A stretch of 64,000 bases of DNA from a virus (IMGVR_UViG_3300038492_000258:108995-172994); one strand, 5' to 3'. Counted from the first letter of the stretch, positions 22,774 through 26,474 are shown. Made by a program: numbers and translations. The notes: generated by a model from the letters alone, not told the origin.

Positions 22774-23013
22774 ATGAATACTTGTGACGTTTGTGAGAAA
22801 CAAACCACAAATATGCGTACATGTAACGTATGTCTAAGATATGACGAAATATATGAACGCATTCAGGATGTAAGCCTAATTCGTAAACGCCTGGCATACA
22901 TGATGCGATTTTTGCGAGACCTTGAAAAAGGTCGAGCAATGGGTTCTATCGATCAAACTAAAACTGAAATTAGAGTACTACGCTGGGTATTAAATAATGA
23001 GCAACAAGCCTGA
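22774..23013 (+). CDS. zinc-ribbon small protein
   Basis: CDVC..CNVC pairs. Confidence 0.35.
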   Translation: MNTCDVCEKQTTNMRTCNVCLRYDEIYERIQDVSLIRKRLAYMMRFLRDLEKGRAMGSIDQTKTEIRVLRWVLNNEQQA

Positions 23014-23467
23014 TTCTCCGTTGGTAACAGTCGATATTGTTATCCTGCTTAGACATGAGTCGCAACGTAGATGTGTACTGGTAAAACGTAAGAATGAGCC
23101 TCACGGATGGGCTCTTCCTGGTGGCGTAATTGACCCCGGCGAATCAGGAATTGCTGCCGCTATTCGAGAGACTGAAGAAGAAACGGGATGTCGTCTTGCC
23201 AATGTGAGGCAATTTCATACTTACACAGATCCGAAACGTGATCCTCGCGGGCCTGCGGTATCAATCGTTTATACGGCCGAAACTATCGATACACCAGTTG
23301 CAAATGATGACGCAGCAGCGATTGGATATTTTGACTTTACGAGCATGCAGGCATATAGCAATGTTCATAATGCTCTTGAACATAAAGAGCTTTGTTTTGA
23401 CCATCCTCAAATTTTGATGGACATCAATCATTTCTATCTGACCCAAGAACGTCCGACTCGTGAGTGA
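22997..23467 (+). CDS. Nudix hydrolase
   Basis: Nudix box GGVIDPGESGIAAAIRETEEETG. Confidence 0.7.
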   Translation: MSNKPDSPLVTVDIVILLRHESQRRCVLVKRKNEPHGWALPGGVIDPGESGIAAAIRETEEETGCRLANVRQFHTYTDPKRDPRGPAVSIVYTAETIDTPVANDDAAAIGYFDFTSMQAYSNVHNALEHKELCFDHPQILMDINHFYLTQERPTRE

Positions 23468-23879
23468 AAAGCTTCATATTTTGATTCTGGAAGATGATCC
23501 GGAACGTATTCAAATATTCCGGCGTAAGATCCGTGGTGTCAATTTTCAAATTGATTACGCGGAAACTGCTGAAGAAGCTATTCGTCTTTGGGAAGCTAGA
23601 AACTACGACGTAGTATTTCTAGATCACGATTTGGGTGGTGAATGTTACGTAGACACTAGTCATAAAAACACTGGTAGTGAAGTTGTTCGCTGGGCTATCA
23701 CTCGCCAACAAACGTTTCCCCTAGACCAGCCTTATATTATTATTCATTCTCTTAATACACCCGCCGCACAGGACATGGAAGATAGATTAAAGCGTGATGG
23801 TTTTGAGAATGTACATCGTATTCCATTTACTAATCTCATGAGAGATTATCTAGACGATCCGAGTTTTCTATCATGTTAG
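23460..23879 (+). CDS. standalone response-regulator receiver (REC/CheY-like) domain protein
   Basis: ILILEDDP ... DVVFLDHDL pattern of phospho-acceptor Asp pocket, 139 aa. Confidence 0.5.
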   Translation: MSEKLHILILEDDPERIQIFRRKIRGVNFQIDYAETAEEAIRLWEARNYDVVFLDHDLGGECYVDTSHKNTGSEVVRWAITRQQTFPLDQPYIIIHSLNTPAAQDMEDRLKRDGFENVHRIPFTNLMRDYLDDPSFLSC

Positions 23880-25330
23880 ACCTTCAAAAAATCAATTTGC
23901 TGGCATACGGCACTGACAGTTATAAGGTTTCCCACTGGAATTTCTACCCAGAGGGAACTACTCTCGTTTATTCTTACGGTGAACCGCGTAACGGCGGCAT
24001 GTTTCCCAACGTTACATTTTTCGGTCTCCAATATATTCTAACCCACCTTGAAGGTGAGTTTGTAACTACCGAACGCATTGACGAAGCCGAGCGGGTTGCT
24101 GAAGACCATATTGGTCCCTACGTATTCAATCGTGCTGGTTGGGAGTACATCCGCGACAACTTTAATGGACGTATTCCGCTTCGCATTCGTGCTCTCCCCG
24201 AAGGCATGACTATTCCCGAAAGCAATTGTCTATTTACGGTAGAAAATCTTGGGGGCGAAGCCACCAAGTGGCTTACTAACTGGTTTGAAACCATTATCTC
24301 GCACGCTTGGTATCCTACGACTGTAATGACTTCTAGTCGCGAAATTCGTAAAGTGATTTTGAAATACCTTGAAAAGACAGGCGACCCTGCTGGGTTGCCG
24401 TTCAAGATTCACGATTTCGGTATGCGTGGTGTATCTTGCCTAGAACAGGCTGCCATTGGTGGCGGTGCCCACCTTGCTACGGGTGCCATGGGCACCGACA
24501 CCATGATTGCTTTGTGGTGGTTAAAGGAATACTATGGTGCCAATGAAATGCCGGCATTTAGTATTCGTGCAACTGAACACTCTATCATGACCGCGAGAGG
24601 CGAAGAAGGCGAGGCCGACGTGGTTCGTCAAGTGCTCGATAACACCCCGAGCGACCAAATGGTCGCCATGGTTGGTGATTCGTATGATATGCTTCGATTC
24701 GTACGAGAGATTTTGGCTTTGCCCGACATTAAGGCTCGTATCGAAGCCCGCACGGCACCTGTTGTGGTCCGTCCCGATTCTGGAACTCTACCCAAAATTG
24801 ATGTAGATGTTTACTGGGCACTGGTTGACGTGTTTGGTGATTCTATTAATGACAAGGGCTACAGCGTTCTTGCACCTTGTGTCGCAATGATTCAAGGCGA
24901 TGGTATTAAGTGGAACCGAGTTCAATGTACTTCTGGTCCTGCTTATGTTCACACTGTAGAAATTATTCTTGAAGCTTTCGAACGTCAGGGTATCTCTGCT
25001 GATAATATCGCTTTCGGTAGTGGTGGTGGATTACTGCAACAATTCGACCGTGACTCGCAACGTTTCGCTATCAAGTGCTCTTATGCTGAGCGTGATGGTA
25101 AAGGGTTTGACATCTACAAACGACCGGCAACTGATCCCACTAAGAATTCGAAGCGTGGTCGCCTTGCCGTAGTGCCCTGCGTTGAGAAGGAATTTGTAAC
25201 TGTATCGGAAGCAGAGGGTGCAGAACTTTGCCTGATGCATACCGTATTTGAAACTGGAGAACGTCAAAATCTTACTACCCTAAACGAGGTTCGTGAACGT
25301 GCAGCACTCCGTGTCAATGCAAGCGTTTAG
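23873..25330 (+). CDS. nadV: nicotinamide phosphoribosyltransferase (NAMPT/NadV)
   Basis: 485 aa, NAMPT-like throughout (e.g. HDFGMRGVS, MVGDSYD segments). Confidence 0.75.
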   Translation: MLDLQKINLLAYGTDSYKVSHWNFYPEGTTLVYSYGEPRNGGMFPNVTFFGLQYILTHLEGEFVTTERIDEAERVAEDHIGPYVFNRAGWEYIRDNFNGRIPLRIRALPEGMTIPESNCLFTVENLGGEATKWLTNWFETIISHAWYPTTVMTSSREIRKVILKYLEKTGDPAGLPFKIHDFGMRGVSCLEQAAIGGGAHLATGAMGTDTMIALWWLKEYYGANEMPAFSIRATEHSIMTARGEEGEADVVRQVLDNTPSDQMVAMVGDSYDMLRFVREILALPDIKARIEARTAPVVVRPDSGTLPKIDVDVYWALVDVFGDSINDKGYSVLAPCVAMIQGDGIKWNRVQCTSGPAYVHTVEIILEAFERQGISADNIAFGSGGGLLQQFDRDSQRFAIKCSYAERDGKGFDIYKRPATDPTKNSKRGRLAVVPCVEKEFVTVSEAEGAELCLMHTVFETGERQNLTTLNEVRERAALRVNASV

Positions 25331-26474
25331 AGAAGCACTAAATAAATCCAACTGGGCGGGGTTTATTTTTGAGGCTGGTATTGGTCTTGAATTCTCTGCA
25401 CAAATGGTGACGGGTGACGGGGCGTCAAAAAATATCCTTGGTGTCGAATGTGATTACGCTGCTATTAACGTAAGATCTGGTGTCAAAGCGGTTTCTTTAG
25501 AAAACGTCAAAGAGCAATCACAAAGGGCCTTCAATAAGGCACGTCAAGTGATTAGTCAAGGACTTATCGATCCTAGGCACGGACCAAATCCTGATGCAAA
25601 ACCTTTTGGACTAGTTATTTCTGGTCGACATAACCATGAAGCGTCTCACGCTTGGATTGCACTTACTACACCTGATTGGACTGCTCATATGCACCTACGT
25701 TTACCTGCTGGTGAACGAGACGAAGTTAGCAAGACTTTGGCAGAAAACGTAGAGTATTTTGTTGGTCACTGTCTTTTCCCAAGGGCACCGTGGAGCACTC
25801 TTGTTAATCGTGGGCATCATGTGGGTGTAGATGTTATTCAGGCTCCTGGCTTGAGTGAAATTGAGCATCTAATGCTTCTTGGGTCTCAAAATCCACTAGT
25901 TTATCATCATGGACAGTTTCAAAGAGTAGAAGATTACCTGCGACAAACTAGCGTAATTTTCCCTGGCTCTTTTAATCCGCCTACTGCCAAGCATCTCAAG
26001 CCTAACCATGTGCTGTATGAAATTACACAAACACATTGTTATAAAGGCAGCCTTTCTTTACTGGATCTTTATCATCGCATGAAAATGCTGGATGCTGCTG
26101 GTAAACCCGTGCTACTAACTAGCTCTCCCCGTTTTATCGACAAAGACGAAATTCTACGCAGTTTAGTTAATCAAGATTACACTTATCTCATTGGTGCGGA
26201 TGCTTGGAATGCAACGATTGCCCATCATCAATATCCGAATGAAGAGTGGCTTGGAAATAAATTAAAGGGATCACGTTTTAGGATTCAACCCAGACCCGGT
26301 GTGGAAATTTCCGAGAATCAGGTTGCCAGACACTTGAGTCATGTTATAATCGATGGCGACAACGACGAACACAACAGTACGGCTGTTCGTACGTCAGACA
26401 ATCCGAGTAGTCACCCCTTCCTTACTGACGAAGTGGCAGACTACATTCGTAGAATGGGATTATATCAATCATAA
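25317..26474 (+). CDS. NMN adenylyltransferase-domain protein with uncharacterised N-terminal domain
   Basis: C-terminal cytidylyltransferase fold with FPGSFNPPTAKH ((H/T)xGH motif); ATG 25317 overlaps NAMPT stop. Confidence 0.55.
   Translation: MQAFREALNKSNWAGFIFEAGIGLEFSAQMVTGDGASKNILGVECDYAAINVRSGVKAVSLENVKEQSQRAFNKARQVISQGLIDPRHGPNPDAKPFGLVISGRHNHEASHAWIALTTPDWTAHMHLRLPAGERDEVSKTLAENVEYFVGHCLFPRAPWSTLVNRGHHVGVDVIQAPGLSEIEHLMLLGSQNPLVYHHGQFQRVEDYLRQTSVIFPGSFNPPTAKHLKPNHVLYEITQTHCYKGSLSLLDLYHRMKMLDAAGKPVLLTSSPRFIDKDEILRSLVNQDYTYLIGADAWNATIAHHQYPNEEWLGNKLKGSRFRIQPRPGVEISENQVARHLSHVIIDGDNDEHNSTAVRTSDNPSSHPFLTDEVADYIRRMGLYQS

What the first reader, a model, noticed from the sequence alone, without database searches (positions are those of the whole stretch)
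22997..26474. NAD+ reconstitution module (Nudix, NAMPT, NMNAT fusion) with an orphan receiver domain
NAMPT and an NMNAT-domain protein form a two-step nicotinamide-to-NAD+ route, as in known phage NadV/NatV pairs. This is a plausible counter to NAD-depleting defence systems (TIR/Thoeris, DSR, SIR2-based). Two features are unusual: the uncharacterised ~200-aa N-terminal domain fused to NMNAT, and a standalone CheY-like receiver domain (23460..23879) between the Nudix and NAMPT genes, which could act as a phosphate sink interfering with host two-component signalling.
Basis: partly seen in the sequence, partly recalled or inferred. Interest (0 to 1): 0.5.

Follow-up and report, generated by a model that had tools for sequence, protein, structure and literature searches.

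The report
Phage NAD+ rebuilding operon, unusual parts
A large uncultured phage carries a tight four-gene operon that most likely rebuilds the cofactor NAD+ from nicotinamide; the pathway type is known, but its last enzyme is fused to a disabled copy of an NMN-deamidase fold, and the supposed signalling receiver is a phage-specific predicted phosphoesterase.

Summary
Four + strand genes overlap by 7-14 nt and lie between tRNA-Arg and tRNA-Thr. They encode a Nudix hydrolase (22997-23467), a receiver-fold protein (23460-23879), NAMPT (23873-25330) and a two-domain adenylyltransferase (probable start 25317, end 26474).

The NAD+ reading is supported by homology. NAMPT keeps all catalytic motifs (E 3e-108 to human NAMPT). 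The C-terminal half of the last protein is a NadD-type NMN/NaMN adenylyltransferase with intact motifs.

- The "orphan CheY receiver" belongs to the cREC family (PF20274). This is a divergent receiver fold found with NAD/ADP-ribose genes. It lacks the conserved receiver lysine and carries an invariant D-H-D-L-G-G motif. The phosphate-sink idea is not supported.
- The "uncharacterised" 200-aa N-terminal domain has the CinA/PncC (NMN deamidase) fold. It keeps the NMN-phosphate-binding residues but has lost the Ser/Lys catalytic pair.

This fusion defines about 300 sequence clusters, almost all with the same architecture. In every neighbourhood examined the genes around it look phage-derived, usually with NAMPT and Nudix nearby. 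I found it neither in GenBank phages nor in the literature I could search.

Verdict: a new variant of the known NARP2-type pathway. All activities are inferred; none was measured.

The parts
22774..23013 (+). Small 79-aa ORF with CxxC-x9-CxxC (zinc-ribbon-like). It overlaps the Nudix start by 17 nt and may be the first gene of the operon.
   Evidence: No Pfam hit. Relatives have a Zn_ribbon_8 ORF a few genes upstream of cREC.
22997..23467 (+). Nudix hydrolase with an intact Nudix box, in the ADP-ribose-binding Nudix lineage; predicted ADP-ribose pyrophosphatase.
   Evidence: PF00293 1.6e-19. Best NCBIfam hits are the NtrR ADPR-binding Nudix (3.7e-16) and NadM-Nudix models. Matches the Nudix half of the phage ACP17 NMNAT-Nudix protein at 4e-7. 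The closest solved chains are deposited only as 'MutT/nudix family protein' or '8-OXO-dGTPase domain' (2fml, 2yyh, 3i9x, 3gz8/3gz5); that 3gz5/3gz8 are NrtR is from memory.
23460..23879 (+). cREC (cyclic-phosphate-processing receiver) domain protein, GTG start; predicted phosphoesterase, not a signalling receiver.
   Evidence: PF20274 3.5e-15, 56.9 bits against a cut-off of 27. AF2 pLDDT 93 with a receiver fold, TM 0.6-0.7. Invariant D12, R16, H56-D57-L58-G59-G60, T71-G72 and H96, with no conserved Lys.
23873..25330 (+). Nicotinamide phosphoribosyltransferase (NAMPT).
   Evidence: E 3.3e-108 to human NAMPT with the HDFGxRG, EHS, RPDSG, QGDG and GSGGG motifs aligned. The residue roles assigned to these motifs are from memory of the human enzyme.
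25317..25931 (+). N-terminal domain (aa 1-205) of the fourth protein: CinA/PncC fold. The NMN-phosphate-binding residues are kept, the Ser/Lys deamidase dyad is lost, and His111/His126 are conserved across the family.
   Evidence: AF2 pLDDT 93.3, pTM 0.90. Foldseek matches many CinA/PncC chains with probability 1.0 and target-normalised TM 0.57-0.68. HMM-HMM alignment to PncC. Residue census over 131 family members.
25932..26474 (+). C-terminal domain (aa ~206-385): NadD-type NMN/NaMN adenylyltransferase with GxFNPPTxxH and SSTxVR motifs.
   Evidence: Family profile against PDB: B. subtilis NadD 1kam 3.1e-8 over the whole domain, S. aureus NadD 6.5e-6, then eukaryotic NMNATs. Foldseek top hits are NadD/NMNAT. 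TIGR00482 2.5e-5.
9303..9947 (+). Calcineurin-like phosphoesterase. It is the homologue of the gene that sits between cREC and Nudix in relatives; here it lies 13 kb away.
   Evidence: tblastn with the L003 Metallophos protein: 39% identity, 1e-45. PF00149 3.3e-15. Neighbourhoods.
22681..22758 (+). tRNA-Arg(ACG), upstream boundary of the block.
26477..26552 (+). tRNA-Thr(TGT), starting 3 nt after the stop of the fourth gene.

Best explanation
This is a translationally coupled NAD+ salvage/reconstitution operon of a roughly 180-kb uncultured T4-like phage. It is functionally analogous to NARP2.

**Proposed flow**
1. Host NADases, or NAD-consuming RNA repair, release nicotinamide and ADP-ribose or phosphorylated/cyclic ADP-ribose derivatives.
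2. cREC opens or removes the extra phosphate to give ADP-ribose. In relatives the adjacent calcineurin-like phosphoesterase helps.
3. Nudix splits ADP-ribose into AMP and ribose-5-phosphate.
4. Host Prs makes PRPP.
5. NAMPT joins PRPP and nicotinamide to give NMN.
6. The NadD-type domain adenylates NMN to NAD+.

The CinA/PncC-fold domain fused in front of the adenylyltransferase is most likely an NMN-binding accessory module (capture, hand-over or regulation), not a deamidase.

**What is shown here:** gene order, overlaps, domain identities, motif conservation, and the conserved neighbourhood.

**What is inferred:** every enzymatic activity, the substrates of Nudix and cREC, the NMN-versus-NaMN preference of the adenylyltransferase, the role of the CinA-like domain, and the anti-defence purpose.
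For: **NAMPT.** Near full-length match to human NAMPT with all catalytic motifs, above the NCBIfam cut-off. Its closest cultured-phage homologues (at most 42% identity) sit beside NMNAT-Nudix genes, which is the NARP2 arrangement.

**Adenylyltransferase.** The profile matches NadD over the whole domain. The (T/H)xxH motif, the SxTxxR motif and a Trp in the position of NadD's Trp are conserved in 36 homologues.

**Operon structure.** Successive genes overlap by 7-14 nt, and the upstream small ORF overlaps Nudix by 17 nt.

**Conserved neighbourhood.** The order cREC - Metallophos - Nudix - NAMPT - CinA::NMNAT recurs on 157-183 kb rIIB-bearing contigs at about 40% identity. Variants without cREC also occur. 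A distant family member again lies next to Nudix and NAMPT.

**Nudix.** It falls in the ADPR-binding lineage and matches the Nudix half of a phage NMNAT-Nudix protein.

**cREC.** Pfam family membership, receiver fold and an invariant D-H-D motif. Published contextual prediction of cyclic-phosphate/ADPr processing, and frequent fusion to Nudix (PMC7824862, PMC9503650).

**CinA-like domain.**
- The fold match is clear.
- The phosphate-binding set is retained: G35/S37, Y47 and R134, equivalent to AtCinA G46/S48, Y58 and R145.
- The Ser31 equivalent is Ala in this protein; across the family it is Val, Thr, Ile or Ala.
- The helix carrying Lys63 is replaced by a loop.
- S31A and K63A abolish PncC activity (PMC5384747).

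**Precedent.** NARP2 counters Thoeris, DSR and SIR2-HerA (10.1101/2024.02.11.579819).
Against: - No activity was measured.
- The adenylyltransferase is closest to NaMN-preferring bacterial NadD enzymes, so NMN use is not established.
- The CinA-like domain has two histidines conserved across the family (H111, H126). That argues for some catalytic role rather than pure binding.
- HMM-HMM support for the residue mapping is weak (E about 0.004, low probability). The model coordinates could not be inspected.
- cREC is absent within 6 kb in 2 of 7 close relatives and in 3 distant loci, so it is an accessory, not a core part.
- The window is rich in tRNA-repair genes (two RNA ligases, a P-loop kinase, a CCA-adding enzyme). 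cREC may therefore serve RNA end-healing instead.
- No Prs/Adps-like gene was seen among the ORFs scanned, so the PRPP supply is assumed to come from the host.
- The purpose could be general NAD+ supply rather than counter-defence.
Confidence: 0.55

Rival explanations
1. Deamidating route. The CinA/PncC-like domain is an active NMN deamidase that uses non-canonical residues. It feeds NaMN to the fused NadD-type domain, giving NaAD, and host NadE then amidates NaAD to NAD+. [quoted passage not shown]
For: PncC and NadD catalyse consecutive steps, and fusion of consecutive enzymes is common. The C-domain's best matches are NaMN-preferring NadD enzymes. The NMN-phosphate-binding residues are kept. 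Thr occupies the nucleophile position in 37 of 131 family members, and two His are conserved family-wide. One distant member nearly reaches the Pfam CinA threshold.
Against: In this protein and its clade the nucleophile position is Ala or Val, and the Lys-bearing helix is deleted. S31A and K63A mutants of PncC are inactive (PMC5384747). The route costs an extra ATP and an amide donor and depends on host NadE, which suits fast NAD+ rescue poorly.
Confidence: 0.15
2. The receiver-fold protein is a genuine phospho-acceptor (CheY-like) that drains phosphate from host histidine kinases.
For: Receiver fold. The acidic pocket residues D12, D13 and D55 and a Ser at the Thr87 position are present. Response_reg barely passes its Pfam cut-off (31.6 against 30.2 bits).
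Against: The Response_reg match covers only profile positions 1-54. The Lys109 equivalent is missing, and non-receiver residues are invariant (HDLGG, TG, H96). No kinase appears in any neighbourhood, and the constant partners are Nudix, Metallophos and NAMPT. The family is described as never associated with histidine kinases (PMC7824862).
Confidence: 0.03
3. cREC (with the Metallophos enzyme) heals RNA 3' ends, resolving 2',3'-cyclic phosphates during tRNA repair. It does not process ADP-ribose derivatives, and its position in the NAD operon reflects only the NAD+ cost of repair.
For: The window holds 28 tRNAs, Rnl1- and Rnl2-type RNA ligases, a P-loop kinase without a phosphatase domain, and a CCA-adding enzyme. 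Relatives place Thg1 next to the operon. Iyer et al. report cREC linked to RNA ligases (PMC7824862, PMC9503650).
Against: Here cREC is translationally coupled between Nudix and NAMPT, 12-26 kb from the ligases. In relatives it travels with Nudix and NAMPT, not with ligases. The two roles are not mutually exclusive.
Confidence: 0.2
4. The operon is an auxiliary metabolic module that raises NAD+ for phage replication in general, as originally proposed for KVP40. It is not specifically a counter-defence device.
For: NARP2 raises NAD+ even without a defence system (10.1101/2024.02.11.579819). The phage carries many housekeeping-type genes.
Against: The phage DNA ligase here is ATP-dependent, so it adds no NAD+ demand for replication. 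Companion enzymes that act on ADPR-type breakdown products fit recycling after NAD+ cleavage. The two purposes overlap and cannot be separated by sequence.
Confidence: 0.3

Closest known systems
NARP2 (Vibrio phage KVP40 NadV/Nampt + NatV/Nmnat-Nudix)
   Same: NAMPT followed by an NMN adenylyltransferase in one operon, with a Nudix activity of the ADP-ribose lineage. The predicted chemistry is the same: nicotinamide + PRPP gives NMN, then NAD+.
   Different: The adenylyltransferase is NadD-type, with no detectable similarity to a phage NMNAT-Nudix protein. KVP40 NatV is NadM/NadR-type (PMC13464706). Here Nudix is a separate gene, an extra CinA-fold domain is fused to the adenylyltransferase, and a cREC gene is inserted.
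cREC domain family (PF20274; Iyer, Anantharaman, Krishnan, Burroughs, Aravind 2021/2022)
   Same: Passes the Pfam threshold. It has the receiver fold, conserved aspartates, no kinase partner, and neighbours that are Nudix, calcineurin-like phosphoesterase and NAD-salvage genes.
   Different: It is standalone rather than fused to Nudix. It has no tblastn match at E<=1e-3 in 50,697 GenBank phage records, so it is a divergent branch. No biochemical characterisation of the family appeared in the papers I could search; the 2022 survey states the family was still uncharacterised at that date (PMC9503650).
PncC / CinA C-terminal domain (NMN deamidase, PF02464)
   Same: Same alpha/beta fold (Foldseek probability 1.0, target-normalised TM up to 0.68). 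The E-x-G-x-G loop, G-x-S phosphate loop, Tyr, A-V-S motif, T/S-G after beta3 and the phosphate-binding Arg are conserved.
   Different: No Pfam CinA hit for this protein. The Ser nucleophile is replaced by Ala/Val, the helix with the catalytic Lys is deleted, two new conserved His are present, and about 50 extra residues bridge to the adenylyltransferase.
Bacterial NadD (NaMN adenylyltransferase)
   Same: Best sequence and fold matches. The (T/H)xxH and SxTxxR motifs and the overall domain length agree.
   Different: The first His of HxGH is Thr in this clade. The domain is always fused behind the CinA-like domain. In the neighbourhoods examined it is phage-encoded and paired with NAMPT, which makes NMN rather than NaMN.
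NARP1-AP (Adps + Namat + Macro-domain ADPR-1''P phosphatase)
   Same: The concept of adding a phosphoesterase to an NAD+ reconstitution operon so that phosphorylated ADPR products can be recycled (10.64898/2026.01.28.702374).
   Different: The enzymes are unrelated (cREC/Metallophos rather than Macro). The core pathway differs (NAMPT/NMNAT rather than Adps/Namat). The activity here is only predicted.

Membership tests
NARP2-type NAD+ reconstitution pathway | Nampt homologue with catalytic residues | tested here: met
   (E 3.3e-108; HDFGxRG, EHS, RPDSG, QGDG and GSGGG aligned).
NARP2-type NAD+ reconstitution pathway | Nmnat encoded with Nampt in the same phage or operon | tested here: met
   14-nt overlap between the two genes. 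Motifs and a NadD-type profile match. The enzyme is not orthologous to NatV.
NARP2-type NAD+ reconstitution pathway | NAD+ made from nicotinamide + PRPP + ATP; rescue from NAD+-depleting defence | not testable with these tools
   Needs enzymology and infection assays.
cREC (PF20274) | Score above the Pfam gathering threshold | tested here: met
   56.9 bits against 27. All 84 homologues carry PF20274.
cREC (PF20274) | Receiver (flavodoxin-like) fold with conserved aspartates | tested here: met
   AF2 pLDDT 93; Foldseek to receiver domains, TM 0.6-0.7. D12 and D57 are invariant and D55 is conserved in at least 90% of members.
cREC (PF20274) | No histidine kinase partner; linked to NAD/ADPr-processing genes | tested here: met
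   Five loci plus the window.
cREC (PF20274) | Cyclic-phosphate/phosphoester hydrolysis | not testable with these tools
   This is a prediction in the source papers as well (PMC9503650).
Canonical two-component receiver (CheY-like) | Conserved quintet D12, D13, D57, T87, K109 | tested here: not met
   The Asp residues and a Ser at the Thr position are present. There is no conserved Lys before the beta5 Pro (R-I-P-F; the residue before Pro is I/S/A/L).
Canonical two-component receiver (CheY-like) | Full-length match to the Response_reg profile | tested here: not met
   Only profile positions 1-54 of 111 are matched.
PncC/CinA NMN deamidase (PF02464) | CinA alpha/beta fold | tested here: met
PncC/CinA NMN deamidase (PF02464) | Pfam profile match | tested here: not met
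   No hit at E<=1 for this protein or its 35 homologues. A distant member scores 21.6 bits, below the 23.5 cut-off.
PncC/CinA NMN deamidase (PF02464) | Ser nucleophile and Lys general base (AtCinA S31/K63) | tested here: not met
   The Ser equivalent is A20 here; across the family it is V 44, T 37, I 16, A 13, S 5 of 131. The Lys equivalent falls in a variable loop. The underlying alignment is weak (E about 0.004).
PncC/CinA NMN deamidase (PF02464) | NMN phosphate-binding residues (G-x-S loop, Tyr, Arg) | tested here: met
   G35 in 126, S37 in 127, Y47 in 128 and R134 in 121 of 131 members.
NadD / NMNAT nucleotidyltransferases | (H/T)xxH and SxTxxR motifs in a Rossmann-like fold | tested here: met
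   G-S-F-N-P-P-T-x-x-H and S-S-T-x-V-R; 1kam 3.1e-8; Foldseek matches to NadD/NMNAT.
NadD / NMNAT nucleotidyltransferases | Substrate preference (NMN versus NaMN) | not testable with these tools
   Needs kinetics.
Nudix ADP-ribose pyrophosphatase | Intact Nudix box GX5EX7REUXEEXGU | tested here: met
   Read directly from the translation (residues 43-65).
Nudix ADP-ribose pyrophosphatase | ADP-ribose as substrate | tested here: inconclusive
   The closest families are ADPR-binding NtrR/NrtR and NadM-Nudix. Specificity cannot be read from sequence.

The most novel reading that the evidence does not exclude
The CinA-fold domain is not a passive remnant. It would be a new enzyme built on the PncC scaffold, using the family-wide His111/His126 pair together with the retained nucleotide-phosphate pocket, and acting on a nicotinamide- or ADP-ribose-derived nucleotide produced by host immunity. 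cREC would be the missing phosphoesterase that lets a NAMPT-based pathway recycle phosphorylated or cyclic ADP-ribose products such as ADPR-1''P from RES-type effectors or ADPR>P. Together they would form an extended, so far undescribed NAD+ reconstitution pathway with two uncharacterised catalytic activities.
Probability: 0.2. Interest if true: 0.75.

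Novelty: new variant of a known kind. Interest (0 to 1): 0.5.

Why it matters
NAD+ depletion is a widespread bacterial anti-phage strategy, and phage pathways that rebuild NAD+ (NARP1, NARP2, NARP3) are under active study.

This operon shows a NAMPT-based pathway assembled from different parts: a NadD-type adenylyltransferase fused to a repurposed PncC fold, a free ADPR-type Nudix, and a cREC protein. The fusion protein represents about 300 sequence clusters at 50% identity. 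They are visible only in metagenomes and are annotated simply as 'NaMN adenylyltransferase'.

The operon gives concrete, cheap targets for:
- the first biochemical test I could find of the cREC prediction;
- asking what a deamidase fold without its catalytic dyad does next to the enzyme that consumes NMN.

If either part has a new activity, it would extend the known phage counter-defence repertoire and the list of ADP-ribose-processing enzymes.

Tried and rejected
- **GenBank phage searches.** Megablast of the whole block, and tblastn of the fourth protein and of cREC, against 50,697 GenBank phage records gave no match. No cultured reference exists. NAMPT alone matches about 2000 records at 42% identity or less.
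- **Sequence searches for the N-domain.** Single-sequence and profile searches against PDB sequences and Pfam found nothing. Only structure prediction plus Foldseek identified the fold.
- **AFDB search.** Foldseek against afdb50 was unavailable. BFVD gave one uncultured-phage protein, A0A6J5RR79, that aligns over 350 columns of the two-domain query.
- **HMM-HMM alignment to PncC.** It agrees with the eye alignment and with the predicted secondary structure, but its probability is low. The residue mapping is therefore the best available, not proven.
- **PADLOC.** No meaningful defence-system match.
- **NARP1 (Namat + Adps).** Rejected. The NAMPT is far closer to true NAMPTs (1e-108) than to the next group of solved chains (1e-55). 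An adenylyltransferase is coupled to it. No Prs-like hit appeared among the roughly 44 larger ORFs scanned. The window covers only about a third of the genome.
- **NARP3 (PnuC + NadR).** Rejected. No NadR-type kinase domain is present in the fourth protein. No PnuC-like transporter turned up among the roughly 44 larger ORFs scanned, though I did not search for one specifically.
- **NudC-type NAD-cap decapping for the Nudix.** The best matches are ADPR-lineage Nudix proteins, not NudC models.
- **Literature.** Searches for a CinA-NMNAT fusion and for cREC biochemistry found no prior description.

Full report
**Observation**

The junction sequences show overlaps of 8 nt (GTGAGTGA), 7 nt (ATGTTAG) and 14 nt. 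The 14-nt figure assumes the fourth gene starts at ATG 25317. The 100%-identical database protein (385 aa) and all homologues begin there. A 79-aa CxxC...CxxC ORF (22774-23013) overlaps the Nudix start by 17 nt. tRNA-Arg ends 16 nt before that small ORF, and tRNA-Thr starts 3 nt after the last stop. No convincing internal promoter or terminator stands out. The block therefore reads as one translationally coupled operon set in a tRNA-rich part of the genome, which has 28 tRNAs in 64 kb.

**The source**

There is no DNA match in GenBank phages. The same genes occur on JGI metagenome contigs of up to 182 kb. Relatives at about 40% protein identity lie on 157-183 kb contigs with T4 rIIB-like genes. 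This is an uncultured large T4-like phage of unknown host.

**NAMPT**

- The third protein matches phrog_448 (1.7e-133) and NF006629 (482 bits against a cut-off of 405).
- It aligns end to end with human NAMPT (E 3.3e-108), with the HDFGxRG, EHS, RPDSG, QGDG and GSGGG motifs in register. The residue roles assigned to those motifs come from my memory of the human enzyme.
- Its nearest cultured-phage homologues (42% identity or less) in Acidovorax phage ACP17 and Pseudomonas phage Milchi sit next to an NMNAT-Nudix or 'cytidyltransferase' gene. That is the NARP2 arrangement.

**Adenylyltransferase domain**

- The window protein alone gives only weak hits: CTP_transf_like at 0.0056 and TIGR00482 at 2.5e-5.
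- A profile of 36 homologues matches B. subtilis NadD (1kam) at 3.1e-8 across the whole domain. S. aureus NadD and eukaryotic NMNATs follow.
- The alignment shows an invariant G-x-F-x-P-P-(T/H)-x-x-H and a nearly invariant S-S-T-x-V-R. These are the two signature motifs of this nucleotidyltransferase class.
- Foldseek on a high-confidence model (pLDDT 93.3, pTM 0.90) puts NadD and NMNAT structures first.
- BLASTP finds no similarity to the ACP17 NMNAT-Nudix protein. KVP40 NatV is of the NadR/NadM type (PMC13464706).
- The second enzyme of the pathway is therefore a non-orthologous replacement. Whether it prefers NMN or NaMN cannot be read from sequence.

**The 'unknown' N-terminal 205 residues**

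Sequence methods were silent. The model's N-terminal half, however, matches more than ten CinA/PncC structures (6l19, 5kvk, 5v01, 5vu3, 5kol, 2a9s, 4cta, 6mr3). These matches have Foldseek probability 1.0, target-normalised TM 0.57-0.68 and rmsd about 3-4 Å.

An HMM-HMM alignment to five PncC sequences is weak (E about 0.004-0.005) but consistent with the predicted secondary structure. It maps residues as follows.

| Phage domain | PncC equivalent | Status |
|---|---|---|
| E19 | Ec E28 | kept |
| A20 | Ser nucleophile (Ec S29, At S31) | lost |
| G21-x-G23 | C-T-G | glycines kept |
| G35-A-S37 | G-S-S phosphate loop | kept |
| Y47 | Y56/Y58 | kept |
| A-V-S60 | A-V-S | kept |
| S102-G103 | T-G after beta3 | kept |
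| R134 | phosphate-binding Arg (R142/R145) | kept |

The stretch carrying the catalytic Lys (helices alpha3-alpha4 of PncC) is replaced by a 15-residue loop (residues 45-60). S31A, K63A, Y58A and R145A each abolish A. tumefaciens PncC activity (PMC5384747). This domain therefore keeps the substrate-phosphate grip but not the amidohydrolase dyad.

**How widespread the fusion is**

- A profile of the N-domain searched against 1.84 billion representatives gave 299 proteins at E<=1e-3. Nearly all are 340-470 aa with the domain at the N-terminus.
- Of ten sampled distant members, eight have a C-terminal cytidylyltransferase-like domain. One (P0212) nearly reaches the Pfam CinA threshold at 1.8e-4.
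- A census over 131 members shows high conservation of S11, E19, G21, G23, G35-A-S37, Y47, R57-x-V-S60, H111, W113, H126 and R134.
- The nucleophile position is V/T/I/A/M, with Ser in only 5 of 131. No Lys is conserved.
- The two family-wide histidines have no counterpart in the PncC motif list, and I cannot explain them.
- Distant members are again in phage-like contexts. One lies beside Nudix and NAMPT, one beside a NAMPT fragment, and one has no NAMPT within 6 kb.
- BFVD holds an uncultured-phage protein (A0A6J5RR79, 'Cytidyltransferase-like domain containing protein') that aligns over 350 columns of the query.
- I found no paper describing this fusion.

**The 'orphan receiver'**

- Pfam assigns it to cREC_REC (PF20274) at 56.9 bits. 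Response_reg reaches 31.6 bits over its first half only.
- All 84 homologues carry PF20274.
- The predicted structure (pLDDT 93) has the receiver fold. It carries a long unstructured beta3-alpha3 loop.
- In 32 diverse members, D12, R16, H56, D57, L58-G59-G60, T71-G72 and H96 are invariant. D55, S97 and N99 are nearly so. Nothing is conserved at the CheY Lys109 position.
- The D55-x-D57 spacing recalls the DxD motif of HAD phosphatases. That is my inference from general knowledge, not a test.
- Iyer et al. defined this family. They noted that it never accompanies histidine kinases and that it is linked or fused to Nudix, calcineurin-like and other NAD/ADPr enzymes. They predicted that it resolves cyclic phosphates such as ADPR 1''-2''>P. 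In 2022 they stated that it was uncharacterised (PMC7824862, PMC9503650). I found no later biochemistry.
- The phosphate-sink hypothesis is therefore not supported.

**Nudix**

The Nudix box is intact (direct reading). The best family matches are the ADPR-binding Nudix domain of NtrR (3.7e-16) and NadM-Nudix bifunctional enzymes. The protein matches the Nudix half of ACP17 NMNAT-Nudix at 4e-7. Among the closest solved chains are 2fml and 3gz5/3gz8, deposited only as 'MutT/nudix family protein'; that 3gz5/3gz8 are Shewanella NrtR is from memory. ADP-ribose pyrophosphatase is the most reasonable assignment but is unproven.

**Neighbourhood**

Four relatives show cREC - Metallophos - Nudix - (small ORFs or HNH) - NAMPT - CinA::NMNAT, often followed by Thg1 and rIIA/rIIB-like genes. 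Two close relatives lack cREC within 6 kb. In the window the order is Nudix - cREC - NAMPT - fusion, and the Metallophos homologue sits at 9303-9947. The common gene order mirrors a plausible reaction order: cyclic or phosphorylated ADPR, then ADPR, then AMP + ribose-5-P, then (host Prs) PRPP, then NMN, then NAD+. That correspondence is suggestive, not evidence of function.

**Mechanism I commit to**

This is a NARP2-like NAD+ reconstitution operon in which NAMPT and the NadD-type domain do the synthesis. Nudix, and cREC where present, recover the ADP-ribose side. The CinA-fold domain binds NMN and presents it to, or gates, the fused adenylyltransferase.

The main rival for that domain is a non-canonical deamidase feeding NaMN to a NaMN-preferring NadD domain. 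The loss of the dyad argues against this, but the conserved histidines leave it open.

The main rival for cREC is RNA 3'-end healing. The window also encodes two RNA ligases, a stand-alone P-loop kinase, a CCA-adding enzyme and RNase T.

Whether the operon serves counter-defence or general NAD+ supply cannot be decided here. The phage DNA ligase is ATP-dependent, and NARP2 is known to defeat Thoeris, DSR and SIR2-HerA (10.1101/2024.02.11.579819).

**Comparison and novelty**

The pathway type is known, and the cREC association has been described computationally. New here:
- the CinA-fold identification of the N-terminal domain;
- the evidence that it is a dyad-less branch of that superfamily;
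- the size and architectural constancy of the fusion family;
- the replacement of the NatV-type enzyme by a NadD-type one.

I rate this as a new variant of a known kind, of moderate interest. It offers clear experiments that could raise or lower that rating.

Noticed in passing
window 27049-27756 (+): A release-factor-like gene. The mechanical ORF starts at GTG 27217 (179 aa; end of the PCRF domain plus RF-1, with GGQ and an RF1-type P-P-T motif). The same frame upstream reads ATG AAG AAT CAG TGA and then 51 more codons of typical PCRF sequence, with no ATG/GTG/TTG in between. This suggests read-through or recoding of an in-frame UGA at codon 5, or a non-canonical start. TGA is a normal stop for neighbouring genes.
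   Followed up: partly
window 17824-17900 (+): A tRNA with anticodon CTA (amber suppressor; ARAGORN calls it 'Pyl') among 28 tRNA genes in the window. No tRNA(TCA) was found.
   Followed up: no
window 35546-36631, 46796-47299, 47551-48888, 50071-51144, 52984-53595 (+): A tRNA/RNA repair and maturation set: an Rnl2-like RNA ligase with a PHA02142 OB domain, a stand-alone P-loop kinase (AAA_33) without a phosphatase domain, a CCA-adding enzyme with an HD domain, a T4 Rnl1-like ligase and RNase T. No Tpt1/KptA or sirtuin was seen among the ORFs scanned.
   Followed up: partly
window 51134-51622 (+): A nucleoside 2-deoxyribosyltransferase-like protein immediately after the Rnl1-like ligase and before a dNMP kinase. 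Its role is unknown.
   Followed up: no
window 34912-35616 (+): A phage-encoded ion-transport / potassium-channel-like protein (Ion_trans 5.8e-26), just upstream of the Rnl2-like ligase.
   Followed up: no
window 58724-60767 (+): A run of translation and housekeeping genes: methionine aminopeptidase (M24), peptide deformylase and PhoH, preceded by a UDG-superfamily protein.
   Followed up: no
window 9303-12765 (+): The Metallophos gene that sits inside the NAD operon in relatives lies here instead. It is followed by a MoxR-like AAA protein and a DUF2201 metallopeptidase-like protein. An AAA_3 + DUF2201_N pair also lies about 1.5 kb downstream of the fusion gene in relative L004 (8720-11073).
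   Followed up: partly
window 28189-28524 (+); L002 4037-4396; L007 2622-2960: A small DUF3307 membrane-like protein recurs near the operon. In two relatives it lies inside the cREC-Nudix-NAMPT block. Its function is unknown.
   Followed up: no
L006 6001-6999 and L007 6001-6987: Two homologues of the fusion protein are called about 55 aa short at the N-terminus, with about 165 nt of uncalled DNA after NAMPT. These are probably mis-called starts or local frameshifts rather than true truncations.
   Followed up: no
window 21370-22488 and 27758-28201 (+): An ATP-dependent DNA ligase and a pyrimidine-dimer DNA glycosylase flank the tRNA/NAD region. The ligase is not NAD-dependent.
   Followed up: partly
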